Shown one piece after another: positions 30,380 through 34,936 of a stretch of DNA of 34,936 bases. The stretch is taken from the NCBI GenBank assembly GCA_016432285.1, contig CP066682.1:81026-115961 (forward strand), given 5' to 3'. A program made the translations under genes and the position numbers. Numbering within the stretch: position 1 is the first letter of the stretch; each line of letters opens with the position of its first letter. The stretch comes from Candidatus Kaiserbacteria bacterium. GTDB lineage: Bacteria > Patescibacteriota > Minisyncoccia > Phycocordibacterales > UBA2100. The notes beneath the pieces were generated by a model. That model had not been told where the DNA came from. It did not search any database and saw only the letters and a program-made list of their open reading frames with translations.

Positions 30380-30997
30380 CTAGAGCTCGCGGGAGCGGTA
30401 TTGCAGTGCTTCCAGCATGTGCGGCGACTCCACGGAGGCGCTGCCGCCAAGGTCTGCGATCGTGCGCGCGAGCTTGATCGTGCGATGGTAGCCGCGGGGC
30501 GAGAGCTTCAGCGAGCGAGCGGCGCCTTGCAGCTCGCGCTCCGCCTTTTCGGATACGTTGGCCGACTTCTCGATGTGTTTCGGCTTCATGTCGGCATTCA
30601 CGAGAATGCCGCTGCCGCGAAAGCGCTCGCGCTGTATCTCGCGCGCCGCGCTCACCTCCTCGCGCGCCGCGCGCGTCTCACCCGTAGCCTTCTTCGCGCG
30701 CGTCGAGAGCGACTCGGGCGGCATCGCTCCCACATGCACCCAGAGATCGATGCGGTCGGCGATCGGGCCCGAGATCTTGCGGCGGTATTTCTCGATCGCG
30801 TGCGGCATGCACACGCAGCGCGTGGATCCCCAGAAGCCGCAGGGGCACGGATTCAGCGCCGCGATCAGCATGAACGAGGCGGGAAAAATTGCCGAGCCTC
30901 GCGCGCGAGAGATGCTCACGGTCCGGTCCTCGAGCGGTTCGCGGAGCGCCTGGATCACATCGCGGTGAAACTCGGGAAACTCGTCGGCAACTAGAAG
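30380..30997 (-). pseudogene. comM: comM/yifB (Mg-chelatase-like AAA+ competence protein), 3-prime fragment only, truncated by element insertion
   Basis: The frame reads (LL)VADEFPEFHRDVIQALREPLEDRTVSISRARGSAIFPASFMLIAALNPCPCG..., i.e. it begins at the Walker B (xxDExPEF) of a roughly 500-aa family. The N-terminal ~300 aa are absent. An in-frame TAA at comp 30998-31000 and a GC drop occur exactly here. Confidence 0.75.
30985..30997. other. Predicted host/element junction (attL or attR) inside comM
   Basis: ComM homology and high GC end here, and low-GC sequence begins. The stop codon of the element's 70-aa ORF is at comp 30991-30993. Confidence 0.5.
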
Positions 30998-31203
30998 TTA
31001 AGTTCGTTGTTCTCGAACATCCGAACGAACTCTTTGAGATTCTTTTCTTCAATGTAGTATCGGCTACCAGACCGCTTCCCTGTTTTAATCGGCTTGAGAA
31101 TATGCTGGTAGTAATCAACGTACTTGCGAATCGTCTTGTAGCTCGTGTGCCAGTAAATAAGATTCTGCTTTTGGATTTGTGCCAATGAGTAAAGCTTTTT
31201 CAT
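30991..31203 (-). CDS. Small HTH DNA-binding protein (excisionase/RDF-like guess)
   Basis: 70 aa. YSLAQIQKQNLIYWHTSYKTIRKYV...GSRYYIEEKNLKEFV resembles the excisionase-family HTH layout. Located at the extreme end of the element. Confidence 0.4.
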   Translation of the reverse strand: MKKLYSLAQIQKQNLIYWHTSYKTIRKYVDYYQHILKPIKTGKRSGSRYYIEEKNLKEFVRMFENNELNF

Positions 31204-31279
31204 AGTGTTGAAGTGAGACGAGCGAATCCACGATCCTTTCTCGTCCTAGTAATCGGGTAAGTAATGGTATCTATTATCT

Positions 31280-33043
31280 TCATACGAGGGTTTTTGGAAC
31301 GTACATAAGAGGGTTGGAACGAAGTATCTGCGCCCGCCTCTCTGCTTCCGTAATCGTTTTGATGTTGAGTACGAGCGGAAATGATTTATTCTCTTGTGAA
31401 ACTTTTTTGCCAAGTTTTACTGTTGCTGTCTCCGTTGAGCCAGGGAACGTGAATACCACAGATGCGTAATCTTCTTTTGCATGTAGCGTAACACGCTCAA
31501 TAAAGAGACGAACGATTTCGGATTTTTCGTCGTATGAAACGGAATCCAAACGCTCTTTGATTTGCTTGTATGCTTGTTGGATAGCGACTTCACGTTCCGC
31601 CTTTTCTTTTTTGGTGAGCAGGGACTGTCGCAGTCGGGACGCTTCATCATTCAATTTCTTTTCTTCTATCCCGTTTCCGTTGCTGTGTTCTCGGTATCGA
31701 GGTTGGTCGATTTTCCCGTTGATGTAGAGTTCGTCCACCCGTTTTTGCTTCTCGTGTACCGAGGAAAGCTCTGTAGCTATTTCCTCAAGCCTCTCTCCTA
31801 TGTTCTGTGGGCTTTCTTCCCTATAGATATATTTCTCCAAAGGGTCAAACATATTCTTTGGATTCTTAAGGATTTCTTTCAAACACTCCCAGACGGGCTC
31901 CAGTCGATTTTCGGAGTATTGAGGACACCAATCGCATCGTTTCGATATGCCTATCACTTTGTCGTTTCGGTAAGTGCCGTGGTAGTACCTGCCACCGGCA
32001 GTCGGCCACCTCTTTGTAGAGGGCTGATATCCGCCAAACATCTTGTATCCACATTTTCCGCAGTATATGACTTTGGAATACAGATAGCTTCTCTTTTGGT
32101 TTCGTTTTGAGAACTCACGGTTCTTCAGAAGTTGTTGTTTCGCGGCCTCGAACATTTCTTGAGTAATGATTGCAGGGCATTTCATTTCAATCCATTCCTC
32201 TTTTGGCCTCAACATTCGTTTGTCTGTAATACTCGTAAGGTTGTTGAAAGGACGCTTATATTTTCGGTAGTAGAATTTTCCCGTGTAGGTTTCGTTGGTC
32301 AATATGCGACCAATCGTTCTGCGATGCCAGTAGTTTAATGTCTGACGTTTTTTGTACTTCGCATTATACGGTGGTGGGACTTTCATTTGGTTCATTCGTT
32401 TTTCAACTTCTCGTAAAGGAAGTTTTTCATCAACGACCCAACTGAAGAGTTTCTTTACGATTTTTGCCTGCTCTGGAATCACAGCAAGTCTTCTGCTTGG
32501 TTTATCAATAAAATACCCGTAAGTTGGAACACCACAAACAAATTTTCCCTCTCGTGCCGCTTTAATTTTCCCCGACATAGTTCTTTCCCTTGTAGTTTCT
32601 CGTTCCGCTTCCGCAATACTTGCAAGAAGTCTAAGAAGCAGACGGCCTGAAATCTCATTTGTGTTAAAAGATTCAGTAGCAGATTGAAACGAAACACCCG
32701 ATGCTTTCAATACCTCAAAGGCATTTAGAAGGTGTCGAGTGCTACGAAAGAATCTGTCTAATCTATAGACGAGTACGACATCAAACTTTTTATTTTCCGC
32801 GTCCTCAAAAAGTTTTGATAACGCTGGACGGTGTTTGATGTCGAGACTGCCTGAATAGCCCTCGTCTTTGTAGATGTTCTCAGCTTCAAGGATGTATTCC
32901 TCTGGTTGTGATTTACAGAATGCTTTAAGTTTTTCTTCCTGAACGGCTAGGCCGTTTCCCTCACGGGCTTGTTCGTCGGTGGAGACACGCAAATACAGAG
33001 CAGCTCTCACTCCTTTTTTCTGCTGTGTATTAGTGTGTTCCAT
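31280..33043 (-). CDS. Large serine recombinase (integrase)
   Basis: AALYLRVSTDEQ catalytic motif and VYRLDRFFRS. Recombinase domain (CGVPTYGY...), zinc-ribbon region YCGKCGYKM...CDWC, and a coiled-coil tail. 587 aa. Confidence 0.9.
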   Translation of the reverse strand: MEHTNTQQKKGVRAALYLRVSTDEQAREGNGLAVQEEKLKAFCKSQPEEYILEAENIYKDEGYSGSLDIKHRPALSKLFEDAENKKFDVVLVYRLDRFFRSTRHLLNAFEVLKASGVSFQSATESFNTNEISGRLLLRLLASIAEAERETTRERTMSGKIKAAREGKFVCGVPTYGYFIDKPSRRLAVIPEQAKIVKKLFSWVVDEKLPLREVEKRMNQMKVPPPYNAKYKKRQTLNYWHRRTIGRILTNETYTGKFYYRKYKRPFNNLTSITDKRMLRPKEEWIEMKCPAIITQEMFEAAKQQLLKNREFSKRNQKRSYLYSKVIYCGKCGYKMFGGYQPSTKRWPTAGGRYYHGTYRNDKVIGISKRCDWCPQYSENRLEPVWECLKEILKNPKNMFDPLEKYIYREESPQNIGERLEEIATELSSVHEKQKRVDELYINGKIDQPRYREHSNGNGIEEKKLNDEASRLRQSLLTKKEKAEREVAIQQAYKQIKERLDSVSYDEKSEIVRLFIERVTLHAKEDYASVVFTFPGSTETATVKLGKKVSQENKSFPLVLNIKTITEAERRAQILRSNPLMYVPKTLV

Positions 33044-33050
33044 GATTAAG

Positions 33051-33654: not shown

Positions 33655-33806
33655 GTTGTTTTTGGAGTCCGTTATTCGCCATAATGTGGCTTAAAATAAG
33701 GGTATTCCTAAATACAACAATAATAGGAAGTGTCAAGTAAGTACATATATTTCCATATATGAAGTGTTAACAACTGATGCAGGCCTTATCGCGCTTAACG
33801 GATTTG

Positions 33807-34520
33807 CTAATAATCTTGGGTTGAGAAGTCATCGAGCATACCCAGATTTAGGAATTCCTGAATTCTGTCCTCTGAGTTAAAGAACCACTTAAGTCCTCTG
33901 GTGCCGTTGTTTCTCATTTGCCATTCGTTTACAGAGAAGTTATTCATGGCTCGCTGAAGGATGCCTGGTGGGAAATCGCTGAGACGGTCAAGAATTTTTT
34001 GTTTTGCTGATTCAGTAAGTCTTGGAATCTTATGCTCTGAGACTTCTCTGGTTCCAGGAAAGATTTTTTTGAGATAATACTTATATACCTCTTCTATTGT
34101 TCTTTCTATAGATAAGTTATCTATAGTGTGTATCCTTTTGTCCCTAGCCAGTGTCGTTTCGTCACCATTTGCAGGGGACGTAAGTACACTGCTTTGGTTT
34201 ACTTTTGTCCCCTGTTCCTGATGTGTTTCTGTCACCAGAGAGTATTCATTCGTCATACTGCTTTTAACTGACGTGATAAATCCTTTCTGCTCCAGAGAAC
34301 GCAACGCTCTGATGATTTGCTTCCGAGAAAGCCCTGTTCCGTTGTGAATCTTGCCCACTCCATGCTCAAGCTGTGTGAGACTGATTCGGTCTGATGACCT
34401 GTCGAAGCCCCATGTGTGCCTGAGTATGCAATCGAGCACTTTTTGTTCCGACCCTCGAGCACTTTTTGTTCCTACCCCACAAGCTCGTGCCAGTGCAGAC
34501 AGAGCACTTTCGGGTAGCAC
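33807..34520 (-). CDS. Phage replication protein O-like (N-terminal winged-helix origin-binding domain)
   Basis: EQKVLDCILRHTWGFDRSSDRISLTQLEHGV...GLSRKQIIRALRSLEQKGFI parallels lambda O (FKVLLAILRKTYGWNKPMDRITDSQL...). Confidence 0.7.
   Translation of the reverse strand: MLPESALSALARACGVGTKSARGSEQKVLDCILRHTWGFDRSSDRISLTQLEHGVGKIHNGTGLSRKQIIRALRSLEQKGFITSVKSSMTNEYSLVTETHQEQGTKVNQSSVLTSPANGDETTLARDKRIHTIDNLSIERTIEEVYKYYLKKIFPGTREVSEHKIPRLTESAKQKILDRLSDFPPGILQRAMNNFSVNEWQMRNNGTRGLKWFFNSEDRIQEFLNLGMLDDFSTQDY
34432..34472. repeat. Two perfect 18-bp direct repeats TCGAGCACTTTTTGTTCC (34432-34449, 34455-34472), period 23 bp
   Basis: Read directly. They lie in the 5-prime end of the O-like gene and are read in two different frames (GTKSAR / EQKVLD). 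Confidence 0.8.
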
Positions 34521-34588
34521 CAGAAGTTGCCACTGATACGCTTGGGTGGGAAACCGGGAAACTTTTGTTCGTGCTCGGTATGCATAAA

Positions 34589-34936
34589 TTAGTTAGTTTG
34601 TGCCTTACCCATTCTTTTTACTGCTGTCTTTTTGAGCCTCGCCTGTTCTTTGTAATCTTTTGCCAGCAACTTTATAGTGCCCTTGTCTACGTCTCCCAAC
34701 ACATAGTCGTTACTGCCAGGAATACGCGTTCGCTTTGCTTTCCCAATCCTGATTTTGCCGTGCACAAAATCCTCAGTCTTCTTTGAACTCTTTTTCCATG
34801 CCCCCACGATAAGTCTTGTCGCAGCAAGTCCTTTACCGCCGTTATAGATAACTAATGTGGCTGGATAACTCTTTGTTTTTGGATTCTCTATCGTATATCT
34901 GAGACTGTTAGCCAGAGCGTAGAGAACTTCGGCTGT
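34589..34936 (-). CDS. Hypothetical element protein, C-terminal part (open to the right edge)
   Basis: The frame of track ORF 34589..34807 stays open upstream to 34936 (TAEVLYALANSLRYTIENPKTKSYPATLVIYNGGKGLAATRLIVGAWKK...). No family recognised. Confidence 0.4.
   Translation of the reverse strand, partial: TAEVLYALANSLRYTIENPKTKSYPATLVIYNGGKGLAATRLIVGAWKKSSKKTEDFVHGKIRIGKAKRTRIPGSNDYVLGDVDKGTIKLLAKDYKEQARLKKTAVKRMGKAQTN

What the first reader, a model, noticed from the sequence alone, without database searches (positions are those of the whole stretch)
30380..34936. Low-GC serine-recombinase element integrated into comM at its Walker B codons
Seen: the ComM-like frame starts abruptly at ..VADEFPEFHRDVIQALREPLEDRTVSISRA (comp about 30990), so the first ~300 codons are missing. 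At the same nucleotide the GC falls from about 63% to about 35-52% (sampled lines). An in-frame TAA precedes the remnant.

The adjacent sequence carries, in order: a 70-aa HTH protein, a 587-aa large serine recombinase within 300 bp of the junction, a second recombinase-domain gene, and a lambda-O-like replication gene.

Established: large serine recombinases integrate phages and other elements site-specifically inside genes (A118 in Listeria comK, SPbeta in B. subtilis spsM, skin in sigK). comM is also a known island insertion site (AbaR-type islands in Acinetobacter, by a different mechanism).

Inference: this is an active or recently active element whose excision would restore comM. If so, a competence/recombination-associated AAA+ protein would be under mobile-element control in an organism that also carries a T4SS-like DNA or contact machine.
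Basis: partly seen in the sequence, partly recalled or inferred. Interest (0 to 1): 0.7.

Follow-up and report, generated by a model that had tools for sequence, protein, structure and literature searches.

The report
Serine-integrase island inserted in comM
A roughly 15-kb mobile element with its own serine integrase sits inside the comM recombination-helicase gene of a tiny groundwater bacterium (Candidatus Kaiserbacteria); the event is real and well defined, but comM is already known as the most common landing site for this class of integrase.

Summary
On the minus strand, a comM/yifB 3' remnant (30380-30989) begins at the Walker B codons (..A-DEFPEF). GC falls from about 0.66 to about 0.42 at that base. 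The adjoining genes are a large serine recombinase (LSR), a resolvase-domain-only paralog and a RepO-like gene.

An independent Logan assembly (SRR12113420) carries the whole element, 14,894 bp. It is bounded on both sides by 30 nt of comM and by a shared 6-bp core, TGCCGA. Joining the flanks gives in-frame LAHRGVLFADEFPEF, colinear with an uninterrupted comM in a relative.

Orthologous LSRs (43-53% identity) in five other genome-collection contigs (four Patescibacteria-labelled, one Firestonebacteria-labelled) all abut comM split at the same codon. Three of them show both halves.

The cargo, which lies outside the window, is defence-type: type I CBASS and a probable restriction-modification system. 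No virion genes were found.

Durrant et al. 2022 already report that 12.4% of site-specific LSRs target this "magnesium chelatase" gene, and phage WO sr1WO does the same. This is therefore a new member of a known kind.

One caveat: the window's copy lacks 18 nt of the element-side attR arm and has a 23-nt duplication that truncates rep. It may be locked in, or these may be assembly errors.

The parts
30380..30983 (-). comM (yifB) 3' remnant: Walker B Asp codon through to the stop codon, about 201 codons, with no internal stop
   Evidence: Pfam Mg_chelatase 110-204/207 (1.8e-33) and Mg_chelatase_C (4.3e-27). Aligns to residues about 305-508 of a reconstituted ComM. 80% identical to the intact relative P0002.
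30984..30989 (-). attR core TGCCGA, the 6 bp shared with the other junction; the crossover dinucleotide lies inside it
   Evidence: The Logan contig has TGCCGA at positions 25-30 (attL) and 14919-14924 (attR). In orthologous elements the shared core is CTA, TTCCT or TT at the same codon.
30989..30990 (-). Point where the window lacks 18 nt (TTTTGTGATTCAACCACT) that the Logan contig has; these 18 nt are the element-side (P) arm of attR
   Evidence: The missing stretch includes the TTTGTG motif, which corresponds to the P-arm motif TTTG..GGAC(A) shared by six other comM-split loci (L004, L005, L006, L135, L136, L138) and present in variant form (ATTG..GGACA) in L007.
30991..31203 (-). 70-aa ORF at the element end; weak HTH (excisionase-type HTH_17) resemblance
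   Evidence: Pfam HTH_17 E 0.0065, 17.1 bits, below the cut-off of 27. No PHROG match. Not seen in L002/L008.
31280..33043 (-). Large serine recombinase (integrase), 587 aa, with the YLRVSTDEQ nucleophile motif
   Evidence: Pfam Resolvase, Recombinase and Zn_ribbon_recom. PDB sequence matches to TP901-1 integrase, a 500-aa 'Integrase' chain (9iu2) and SPbeta YokA. 51% identical over its full length to the LSR of the comM-split element in L002.
33051..33497 (-). Resolvase-catalytic-domain-only paralog, 148 aa, 41% identical to the LSR N-terminus; Glu aligns with the Ser nucleophile
   Evidence: The same arrangement occurs upstream of the LSR in L007, L136 and L138.
33484..33654 (-). Conserved 56-aa protein upstream of the recombinase genes; candidate directionality factor (inference)
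   Evidence: 49% identical to the 57-aa ORF that overlaps the LSR start in L002. A similar 61-aa ORF is present in L005.
33807..34585 (-). RepO-like replication initiator gene, disrupted in the window by a 23-nt tandem duplication (34477-34455 and 34454-34432) that creates a TAG after codon 37
   Evidence: The intact 251-aa version is in the Logan contig. Homologs in L002 (36% identity), L005 and L007 pass or approach the Pfam Phage_rep_O threshold.
34589..34936 (-). 3' part of a 142-aa element gene of unknown function that runs off the window; the element continues about 11 kb beyond the window end
   Evidence: Logan contig gene table. The element is 14,894 bp in total.

Best explanation
The window ends inside a roughly 14.9-kb integrative element that a large serine recombinase (LSR) inserted into the chromosomal comM (yifB) gene of a Candidatus Kaiserbacteria genome. 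The insertion point is the codon just before the Walker B Asp-Glu.

Proposed mechanism. The steps marked as inferred follow from what is established for LSRs such as phiC31, Bxb1, TP901-1, A118 and SPbeta.
- LSR dimers bind attP on the circular element. In the Kaiserbacteria element itself the attP inverted repeat is weak: the innermost AACC..GGTT pairs flank the core TGCCGA. A clear imperfect inverted repeat, TTTG..GAC / GTC..CAAA, was seen in the orthologous L005 and L007 elements.
- LSR dimers also bind attB inside comM (..GGCGTCCTTTT-TGCCGA-CGAGTTTCCC..).
- The two sites synapse, all four strands are cut at a central dinucleotide inside the 6-bp core, the subunits rotate and the strands are religated (inferred).
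- The result is attL (comM 5' half plus element) and attR (element plus comM 3' half). attR is the junction at window 30984-30989.

Excision would need the LSR plus a directionality factor; the conserved 56-aa protein upstream of the LSR is a candidate (inferred). It would rebuild an in-frame comM (shown by reconstruction).

While the element is integrated, ComM lacks a contiguous AAA+ module and is presumably inactive. In other bacteria this lowers recombination of heterologous transforming DNA and so protects resident mobile elements from being removed ('chromosomal curing'). That is an inference from work on Acinetobacter and Vibrio, not tested here.

Gene content. The backbone is an S24 LexA/CI-like repressor, a RepO-like initiator, the 56-aa protein, a mostly dead resolvase-domain paralog, and the LSR. 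The cargo is defence genes (type I CBASS; two methyltransferases beside a LAGLIDADG-like/PD-ExK nuclease candidate) plus an amidase. No virion genes are recognisable. It looks like a small repressor-controlled, replicative, capsid-less island or satellite rather than a complete prophage.

The copy in the window carries two lesions: the attR arm is deleted and rep is truncated. If these are real, this copy can no longer excise.
For: - Junction anatomy and domain calls.
- An independent Logan contig with the same element joined to the same comM bases. Over 3.9 kb it has 0 mismatches with the window.
- The full contig begins with 30 nt of comM 5' sequence (LAHRGVLFA) and ends with 30 nt of comM 3' sequence. 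The core TGCCGA is at both junctions, and attB reconstructs in frame.
- The reconstruction is colinear with the uninterrupted comM of relative L139.
- The element's 544-aa protein is encoded on the same 859,170-bp Kaiserbacteria contig as the window's comM remnant.
- All five close LSR relatives in the GTDB genome collection abut a comM 3' part that starts at residue about 305. L005, L007 and L008 also have the 5' half, ending at residue about 306-311. The elements are 6.1, 10.7 and 9.5 kb long.
- The crossover is pinned to the first two bases of the codon before the Walker B Asp (TT in L007; CT lies within the cores of L005 and L008).
- Further split loci, L136 and L138, have the same RepO, resolvase-only and LSR module.
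- 16 of the 120 best ComM C-terminal hits begin with non-ComM residues, or with the start codon itself, directly at (L)DEFPEF.
- Cargo: CD-NTase at 1.6e-99, Cap15/2TM at 9.5e-56, and methyltransferases.
- No PHROG structural hits.
- The model of the 544-aa protein is nuclease-like.
- Literature: 12.4% of site-specific LSRs target this gene (PMC10083194). sr1WO integrates into the Wolbachia Mg chelatase gene (PMC9203015). comM interruption by mobile elements lowers transformation (PMC11472951).
Against: - The comM 5' half of the window's own genome was not seen directly. The window ends 3.9 kb into the element, and the left junction comes from a Logan contig that shows only 30 nt of comM.
- The window's attR lacks the 18-nt element-side arm and its rep gene is interrupted, so this copy may be inert.
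- No attP (circular form) or exact attB was found in the JGI metagenome contigs; attL/attP was also absent from IMG/VR.
- By position homology the central dinucleotide would be GC, which is palindromic and atypical for LSR sites. The exact crossover within TGCCGA is therefore unresolved.
- No recombination activity, directionality factor or transfer route has been demonstrated.
- Several element ORFs (294, 142, 135, 122 aa) have no assignable function, so unrecognised virion genes cannot be excluded.
Confidence: 0.85

Rival explanations
1. The copy in this window is a locked-in, decaying remnant. It integrated through the LSR in the past, has since lost the element-side arm of attR and an intact rep gene, and can no longer excise. 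comM would then be permanently inactivated in this lineage. This reading agrees with the best explanation on origin and differs on present activity.
For: There is an 18-nt deletion exactly at attR and a 23-nt tandem duplication that creates a premature TAG in rep. Both are absent from the otherwise identical Logan contig. The deleted stretch holds the motif that corresponds to the conserved P-arm TTTG..GGACA of related elements. Related loci also show decay: the LSR is split into two ORFs in L136, and L135 has an attR-like remnant without an LSR.
Against: The LSR, the paralog, the 56-aa ORF and the comM remnant are all intact ORFs, and there are 0 substitutions between the two assemblies. Both indels lie where assemblers err: one at a polymorphic junction, the other as a short tandem overlap typical of contig-end joins. 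The Logan variant with intact attR and rep exists in at least one read set.
Confidence: 0.4
2. The element is a complete temperate phage (prophage) of a Patescibacterium, with virion genes too divergent to recognise.
For: It has a CI/LexA-like S24 repressor, a RepO-like initiator, an Amidase_3 endolysin-like gene (PHROG endolysin 2e-18) and an LSR at the end. These are typical temperate-phage modules. Several ORFs remain unassigned.
Against: The element is only 14.9 kb, and related elements are 6.1-10.7 kb. About 6 kb is defence cargo. There are no PHROG or Pfam hits to capsid, portal, terminase or tail proteins. The largest unknown protein models as a nuclease, not a virion protein. IMG/VR holds no close relative of the LSR.
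Confidence: 0.12
3. The junction is an assembly chimera between a high-GC chromosome and an unrelated low-GC contig.
For: The GC step is abrupt, and the two assemblies differ by an 18-nt indel exactly at the junction.
Against: An independent assembler and read set join the same element to the same comM bases at both ends. Both element proteins and the comM remnant map to one 859,170-bp contig. Orthologous LSR elements sit at the same codon in other contigs (labelled Patescibacteria, plus one labelled Firestonebacteria) with both gene halves present.
Confidence: 0.02
4. comM was split by a Tn7-like (AbaR-type) transposon or another non-LSR mechanism, and the LSR is only a passenger.
For: comM is the classical Tn7-like AbaR target in Acinetobacter, and in that species comM-inserted elements often carry CBASS (PMC11472951).
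Against: No Tns/Tni transposition genes appear in the 14.9-kb element. The junctions share a 2-6-bp core and lack a 5-bp target duplication flanked by terminal inverted repeats. LSR orthology tracks the target site across hosts.
Confidence: 0.01
5. The element acts as a programmed, reversible switch of comM ('active lysogeny', as with the phage in Listeria comK or SPbeta in spsM). It would excise under defined conditions to restore recombination-helicase function.
For: Excision would rebuild comM precisely. The S24 repressor suggests damage-responsive induction. The comM remnant shows no decay. An unoccupied allele probably co-occurs (contig-end inference).
Against: There are no expression or time-series data. 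No attP form was detected (the Logan contig is not broken at the core as an attP path would require). The window's copy has a damaged attR. Population polymorphism explains the co-occurring empty site equally well.
Confidence: 0.05

Closest known systems
Site-specific large serine recombinases that target the 'magnesium chelatase/ATP-dependent protease' gene (ComM/YifB), catalogued by Durrant et al. 2022 (PMC10083194)
   Same: The recombinase class is the same. The target gene family is the same, and it is interrupted within its coding sequence. Diverse LSR clusters converge on this one gene. That paper also reports enrichment of competence genes among LSR targets, and 12.4% of predicted site-specific LSRs hit this gene.
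   Different: That survey drew on isolate-type genomes. I could not check whether any of its LSRs belongs to this clade. The best phage LSRs in GenBank are no more than 30% identical, and the one Firmicutes case seen here (L051, 29% identity) crosses over about 4 codons upstream. The elements described here are very small (6-15 kb), lack recognisable virion genes and occur in Patescibacteria.
Phage WO sr1WO of Wolbachia (Bordenstein and Bordenstein 2022, PMC9203015)
   Same: A large serine recombinase integrates the element into the host's magnesium chelatase gene. Portions of the gene flank the prophage, and attB can be reconstructed by concatenating the flanks.
   Different: WO is a full tailed prophage of tens of kb in an alphaproteobacterial endosymbiont. 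I did not compare the exact site within the gene or the LSR sequences.
Listeria phage A118 in comK; SPbeta in spsM; skin element in sigK (LSR-mediated intragenic prophages/elements)
   Same: LSR integration inside a gene, precise reconstitution on excision, and a short core with imperfect inverted-repeat att sites. A118 also interrupts a competence gene.
   Different: The target genes and hosts differ. Those elements are phages or phage relics with demonstrated regulated excision; none of that is shown here.
AbaR/AbGRI (Tn6022-type, Tn7-like) islands and other mobile elements in Acinetobacter baumannii comM (PMC11472951)
   Same: The same gene is interrupted in the same Mg_chelatase AAA+ domain. 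The cargo is often defence systems, including CBASS. The proposed benefit to the element is the same: it blunts ComM-dependent recombination that could cure it.
   Different: The mechanism there is Tn7-like transposition (TniA/B/C, TnsD-like targeting, target-site duplication), not serine recombination, and excision does not precisely restore comM.

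Membership tests
Large serine recombinase (serine integrase) | N-terminal resolvase catalytic domain with the Ser nucleophile | tested here: met
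   PF00239 at 2.5e-36 over residues 14-167. The YLRVSTDEQ motif is conserved with orthologs. PDB sequence matches to TP901-1 integrase and gamma-delta resolvase.
Large serine recombinase (serine integrase) | C-terminal recombinase domain plus zinc-ribbon domain | tested here: met
   PF07508 at 1.6e-19 (residues 190-308). PF13408 at 5.6e-4, 20.7 bits, below the cut-off of 25.3, but the Cys pairs CGKCG..CDWC are invariant with the L002 ortholog. Matches SPbeta YokA and a 500-aa integrase chain through residue about 350.
Large serine recombinase (serine integrase) | Coiled-coil motif inserted in the zinc-ribbon domain, which controls directionality | not tested
   No coiled-coil prediction or structure model of the LSR was run.
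Large serine recombinase (serine integrase) | Short attP/attB sites sharing only a small core around a central dinucleotide, with imperfect inverted-repeat arms | tested here: met
   Cores of 2-6 bp: TGCCGA here, and TT, CTA and TTCCT in orthologous elements. In L005 and L007 the reconstructed attP has arms TTTG..GAC / GTC..CAAA 16 nt apart, centred on the core.
Large serine recombinase (serine integrase) | Catalyses unidirectional attP x attB recombination; excision needs a directionality factor | not testable with these tools
   Needs a recombination assay. The 56-aa conserved ORF is only a candidate directionality factor.
ComM / YifB (target gene) | Mg_chelatase AAA+ module followed by Mg_chelatase_C | tested here: met
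   The remnant covers Mg_chelatase 110-204/207 and all of Mg_chelatase_C. The closest named homologs are annotated as YifB family / magnesium chelatase family.
ComM / YifB (target gene) | N-terminal Lon-protease-like ChlI domain and Walker A, contiguous with the rest of the gene | tested here: not met
   Absent from the window, as expected for a split gene. Only the last 30 nt of the 5' half were seen, on the Logan contig. Full 5' halves with the ChlI domain are present in L002/L008, L005, L007 and L136.
LSR elements integrated in comM/'Mg chelatase' (Durrant 2022; WO sr1WO) | The two gene halves flank an LSR-bearing element and concatenate to an intact, in-frame gene | tested here: met
   Reconstruction from the Logan contig plus the window gives LAHRGVLFADEFPEF... 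The same holds for L008, where it gives a 508-aa product. The attB is colinear with uninterrupted L139.
Temperate tailed phage (prophage) | Capsid, portal, terminase and tail genes | tested here: not met
   No such PHROG or Pfam hits among the element ORFs. The element is 14.9 kb, about 6 kb of it defence cargo. The 544-aa protein models as LAGLIDADG-like.
Tn7-like AbaR-type island | TnsA/B/C-type (TniA/B/C) transposition genes and a 5-bp target duplication | tested here: not met
   No such domains in any element ORF. The junctions share a recombinase core instead.
Integrative conjugative or mobilisable element | Relaxase, with or without a type IV secretion/coupling protein, inside the element | tested here: not met
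   No relaxase or T4SS domain among the element ORFs. The TraG/VirB4-like ATPase at window 11204-13186 is chromosomal and 18 kb away.
Type I CBASS (cargo, outside the window) | CD-NTase cyclase adjacent to a nucleotide-sensing effector | tested here: met
   L134 935-1849 matches the PADLOC Cyclase model at 1.6e-99. L134 1846-2448 matches the 2TM effector at 9.5e-56, and Pfam Cap15_CD_rec at 7e-25.

The most novel reading that the evidence does not exclude
Patescibacteria harbour a dedicated, previously undescribed family of very small (6-15 kb), capsid-less elements. They are repressor-controlled and self-replicating (RepO-like), and all use the codon before the comM Walker B Asp as their landing site. 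They ferry defence systems (CBASS, restriction-modification, helicases). They pair the LSR with a conserved 56-aa partner and often with a catalytically dead resolvase-domain paralog that could regulate recombination. Because these bacteria are thought to depend on DNA uptake, such elements could switch ComM-dependent recombination on and off across a large part of the bacterial tree.
Probability: 0.25. Interest if true: 0.5.

Novelty: new member of a known kind. Interest (0 to 1): 0.3.

Why it matters
The window gives a fully delimited example of LSR integration into comM in a Candidate Phyla Radiation genome, with attL, attR and reconstructed attB and attP.

Mobile elements are poorly charted in this group. 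It shows that the LSR-comM pairing known from cultured bacteria and from Wolbachia extends to these ultra-small bacteria, and that the inserted elements there carry anti-phage defence cargo.

In practical terms, the LSR and att sites are candidate tools for genetic manipulation of Patescibacteria, which currently lack them. Split comM genes in such genomes should be read as element insertions, not as gene loss.

The finding does not change what is known about how LSRs or comM-targeting elements work.

Tried and rejected
- Looked up the window's own comM remnant (translation and P0001) in the contig index to extend the window. It is not on record.
I got round this through the listing of cluster members, which also identified the genome.
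- Ran a homology search with the N-terminal part of a relative's ComM to recover the window genome's 5' half. Only 418 candidates were scored, all short fragments, and none came from the 859-kb contig, so this was unproductive.
- Ran exact-pattern scans for the attL/attP side (GCCGAGGTCGGTTATTAAAAGAGG) in the JGI metagenome contigs and IMG/VR, and for the reconstructed attB in the JGI metagenome contigs. All gave 0 hits.
- Scanned IMG/VR with the LSR alignment. There was no relative above about 36% identity, and none was flanked by comM.
- Megablast of the element against PLSDB plasmids gave no match.
- DNA for relative P0003 was unavailable; L139 was used instead.
- A promoter/terminator scan of the junction found nothing.
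- Considered and rejected: assembly chimera, Tn7-like insertion, and ICE (see the rival explanations and the membership tests).

Full report
**1. Observation**

On the minus strand, the frame ending at 30380 reads T*LLVADEFPEFHRDVIQALREPLEDRTVSISRA.... It matches Pfam Mg_chelatase only from profile position 110 of 207 (E 1.8e-33), and it matches all of Mg_chelatase_C (E 4.3e-27). This is therefore the C-terminal ~200 residues of a ComM/YifB AAA+ protein, starting at the Walker B motif.

GC in 300-nt windows is 0.63-0.68 up to about 30950 and 0.38-0.51 from there to the window end.

The genes that follow on the same strand are:
- a 70-aa ORF with only a weak HTH_17 resemblance;
- a 587-aa large serine recombinase (Resolvase + Recombinase + zinc ribbon);
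- a 148-aa resolvase-domain-only ORF;
- a 56-aa ORF;
- a RepO-like ORF.

**2. The other junction**

The exact LSR protein is also encoded on a Logan contig from run SRR12113420, 14,948 bp long. Where the contig overlaps the window (3.9 kb) there are no mismatches.

The rest of that contig became reachable after an exact-sequence look-up of its 544-aa protein. The same look-up showed that this protein is QQG38058.1 of a Candidatus Kaiserbacteria MAG and lies on an 859,170-bp contig. The window's comM remnant has the same longest-contig length.

The rebuilt contig has these features:
- It starts with GCTCGCGCATCGCGGCGTCCTTTTTGCCGA, which encodes LAHRGVLFA, the ComM residues just before Walker B. 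It then turns into low-GC element sequence.
- It ends with TGCCGACGAGTTTCCCGAGTTTCACCGCGA, identical to the window.
- The two junctions share the 6-bp core TGCCGA.
- The element, counted with one core copy, is 14,894 bp.

Joining the flanks gives LAHRGVLFADEFPEFHRDV... in frame. It is colinear, apart from synonymous differences, with the uninterrupted comM of a relative with 80% amino-acid identity (L139).

**3. Evidence for a co-occurring alternative allele (inference)**

The Logan contig stops exactly 30 nt beyond the last element-specific base at both ends. From my own knowledge, Logan contigs come from a k = 31 de Bruijn graph. A unitig ends at k-1 = 30 shared bases where the graph branches.

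At the left end, the only obvious alternative successor is the uninterrupted comM (attB). At the right end, the branch could be attB or the window-type junction.

The contig is not broken at the core on the element side, as an attP path would require. There is therefore no sign of a circular form. Exact searches for attL/attP in JGI metagenomes and IMG/VR, and for attB in JGI metagenomes, found nothing.

**4. Lesions in the window copy**

The window differs from the Logan contig by two indels and nothing else.

- Eighteen nt (TTTTGTGATTCAACCACT) are missing between 30989 and 30990. These are the element-side arm of attR.
- A 23-nt tandem duplication (34477-34432) introduces a TAG after codon 37 of the RepO-like gene.

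If real, these lesions lock this copy in place. Both, however, lie where assemblies tend to fail. Only reads can decide.

**5. Generality**

A scan of one genome per GTDB species with an LSR alignment returned five close relatives (43-53% identity). They are labelled Parcubacteria, Paceibacterota, Saccharibacteria and, on a 2-kb contig, Firestonebacteria.

In all five, a comM 3' part starting at residue about 305 follows the LSR. L005, L007 and L008 also hold the 5' half. Their elements are about 6.1, 10.7 and 9.5 kb.

The cores shared between the left and right junctions are TTCCT, TT and CTA. This places the crossover on the first two bases of the codon before the Walker B Asp. In L005 and L007 the reconstructed attP sites are imperfect inverted repeats (TTTG..GAC / GTC..CAAA) centred on that dinucleotide.

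By position homology the Kaiserbacteria crossover would be GC, which is palindromic and unusual. I therefore leave the exact dinucleotide within TGCCGA open.

Further points:
- Among the 120 best database hits to the comM remnant, 16 begin with non-ComM residues, or with the start codon itself, directly at (L)DEFPEF. Thirteen more start just downstream, as the window's called gene does.
- Three of these hits were inspected. L136 and L138 carry RepO, resolvase-only and LSR modules next to split comM. L135 has an intact comM followed by an attR-like arm and a second comM 3' part, with no LSR.
- One distant LSR (29% identity) in a Peptococcaceae MAG also abuts a comM 3' part, with a junction about four codons upstream.

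**6. What the element is**

The backbone shared across loci is:
- an S24 LexA/CI-like repressor;
- a RepO-like initiator;
- a conserved 56-61-aa protein;
- often a resolvase-domain-only paralog, whose Ser nucleophile is replaced in three of four cases;
- the LSR.

The Kaiserbacteria element adds cargo:
- a type I CBASS (CD-NTase at 1.6e-99; Cap15/2TM effector at 9.5e-56);
- two DNA methyltransferases next to a 544-aa and a 167-aa gene;
- a pair of HTH_3 regulators;
- an Amidase_3 gene.

The 544-aa protein has no Pfam family. It is widespread, and its AlphaFold model is confident (pLDDT 89). The N-terminal half of the model resembles LAGLIDADG endonucleases (Foldseek E 2e-5 to 1e-3). A PD..ExK motif is visible by eye near the C-terminus of the alignment. 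It is probably the nuclease of a restriction-modification system.

No capsid, portal, terminase, tail, relaxase or Tn7-type genes were detected. IMG/VR and PLSDB hold no close relative. The best phage LSRs are no more than 30% identical. The most economical description is a small, repressor-controlled, replicative integrative island or satellite with defence cargo. A highly divergent mini-phage is not excluded.

**7. Mechanism**

Shown:
- the recombinase class;
- the att anatomy;
- precise reconstitution of comM;
- LSR orthology tracking the target site.

Inferred from established LSR biochemistry:
- synapsis of attP with attB;
- double-strand cleavage at a central dinucleotide, subunit rotation and religation;
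- excision that depends on a directionality factor.

Inferred from work on Vibrio and Acinetobacter (cited in PMC11472951): splitting ComM should reduce recombination of heterologous incoming DNA and so protect resident elements.

**8. Comparison with what is known, and verdict**

Durrant et al. [quoted passage not shown] They also state that LSR targets are enriched for competence genes.

Phage WO sr1WO integrates into the Wolbachia magnesium chelatase gene by a large serine recombinase (PMC9203015). In Acinetobacter, comM is split in the same domain by Tn7-like AbaR islands and by other defence-carrying elements (PMC11472951).

I found no paper in the searchable library describing such elements in Patescibacteria.

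It is a new member of a known kind. The modest points of interest are the CPR host range, the minimal capsid-less architecture with defence cargo, and the conserved small protein and dead-resolvase partner.

Noticed in passing
window 30989/30990 (minus strand), compared with L001 12056-12073: The window lacks 18 nt (TTTTGTGATTCAACCACT) that an otherwise identical independent assembly has at the element-comM junction. The missing stretch is the presumed recombinase-binding arm of attR.
   Followed up: partly
window 34432-34477 (minus strand): A 23-nt tandem duplication with one mismatch (GGGTAGGAACAAAAAGTGCTCGA / GGGTCGGAACAAAAAGTGCTCGA) is absent from the Logan contig. It creates a TAG after codon 37 of the RepO-like gene, whose authentic ATG is at 34585.
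   Followed up: yes
window 33051-33497 (minus strand); also L007 9564-9983, L136 6108-6545, L138 1612-2064: A resolvase-catalytic-domain-only paralog (139-150 aa) sits directly upstream of the LSR in four comM-inserted elements. The Ser nucleophile is replaced in three of the four (Glu, Gly, or a degenerate motif). Its role is unknown; it may be regulatory.
   Followed up: partly
window 33484-33654 (minus strand); L002 7957-8130; L005 9801-9986: A conserved 56-61-aa protein (LRDYxIADxIQRI..EL.REL) lies immediately upstream of the recombinase genes in three elements. It is a candidate recombination directionality factor.
   Followed up: partly
L134 201-2448 (outside the window, left end of the same element): The element carries an S24 LexA/CI-like repressor and a type I CBASS (CD-NTase plus a Cap15-type 2TM effector). 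This echoes the CBASS-carrying insertions reported in Acinetobacter comM.
   Followed up: yes
L134 2917-6884: A 544-aa protein without a Pfam family lies convergent with two DNA methyltransferases, so this is probably a restriction-modification system. Homologs at 42-98% identity occur in many Patescibacteria, and also in records labelled Acinetobacter baumannii and Polynucleobacter. It models as a LAGLIDADG-like N-terminal half with a PD..ExK-like C-terminus.
   Followed up: partly
L135 5084-8111: An intact 514-aa comM is followed 0.8 kb downstream by an attR-like arm (TTTGCGGGACAACTACCTTG) and a second comM 3' part (82% nt, 91% aa identity), with no recombinase. It may be the scar of an element, or an element-borne replacement of the gene's 3' end.
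   Followed up: partly
L051 10001-12104: A Peptococcaceae MAG has an LSR only 29% identical to the window's. It also abuts a comM 3' part, with the junction about four codons upstream of the Patescibacteria site (..*GVLFLDEMPEF).
   Followed up: partly
L136 6530-8282: In this comM-split locus the LSR is called as two ORFs (362 + 227 aa), which suggests a frameshifted, decaying recombinase.
   Followed up: no
window 3787-6444, 11204-13186, 23632-26960: Host context: dnaN and dnaA lie near the window start. UvrD and a LysM/M23 peptidase lie near comM, and these two neighbours are also found next to comM in L002 and L136.
   Followed up: partly
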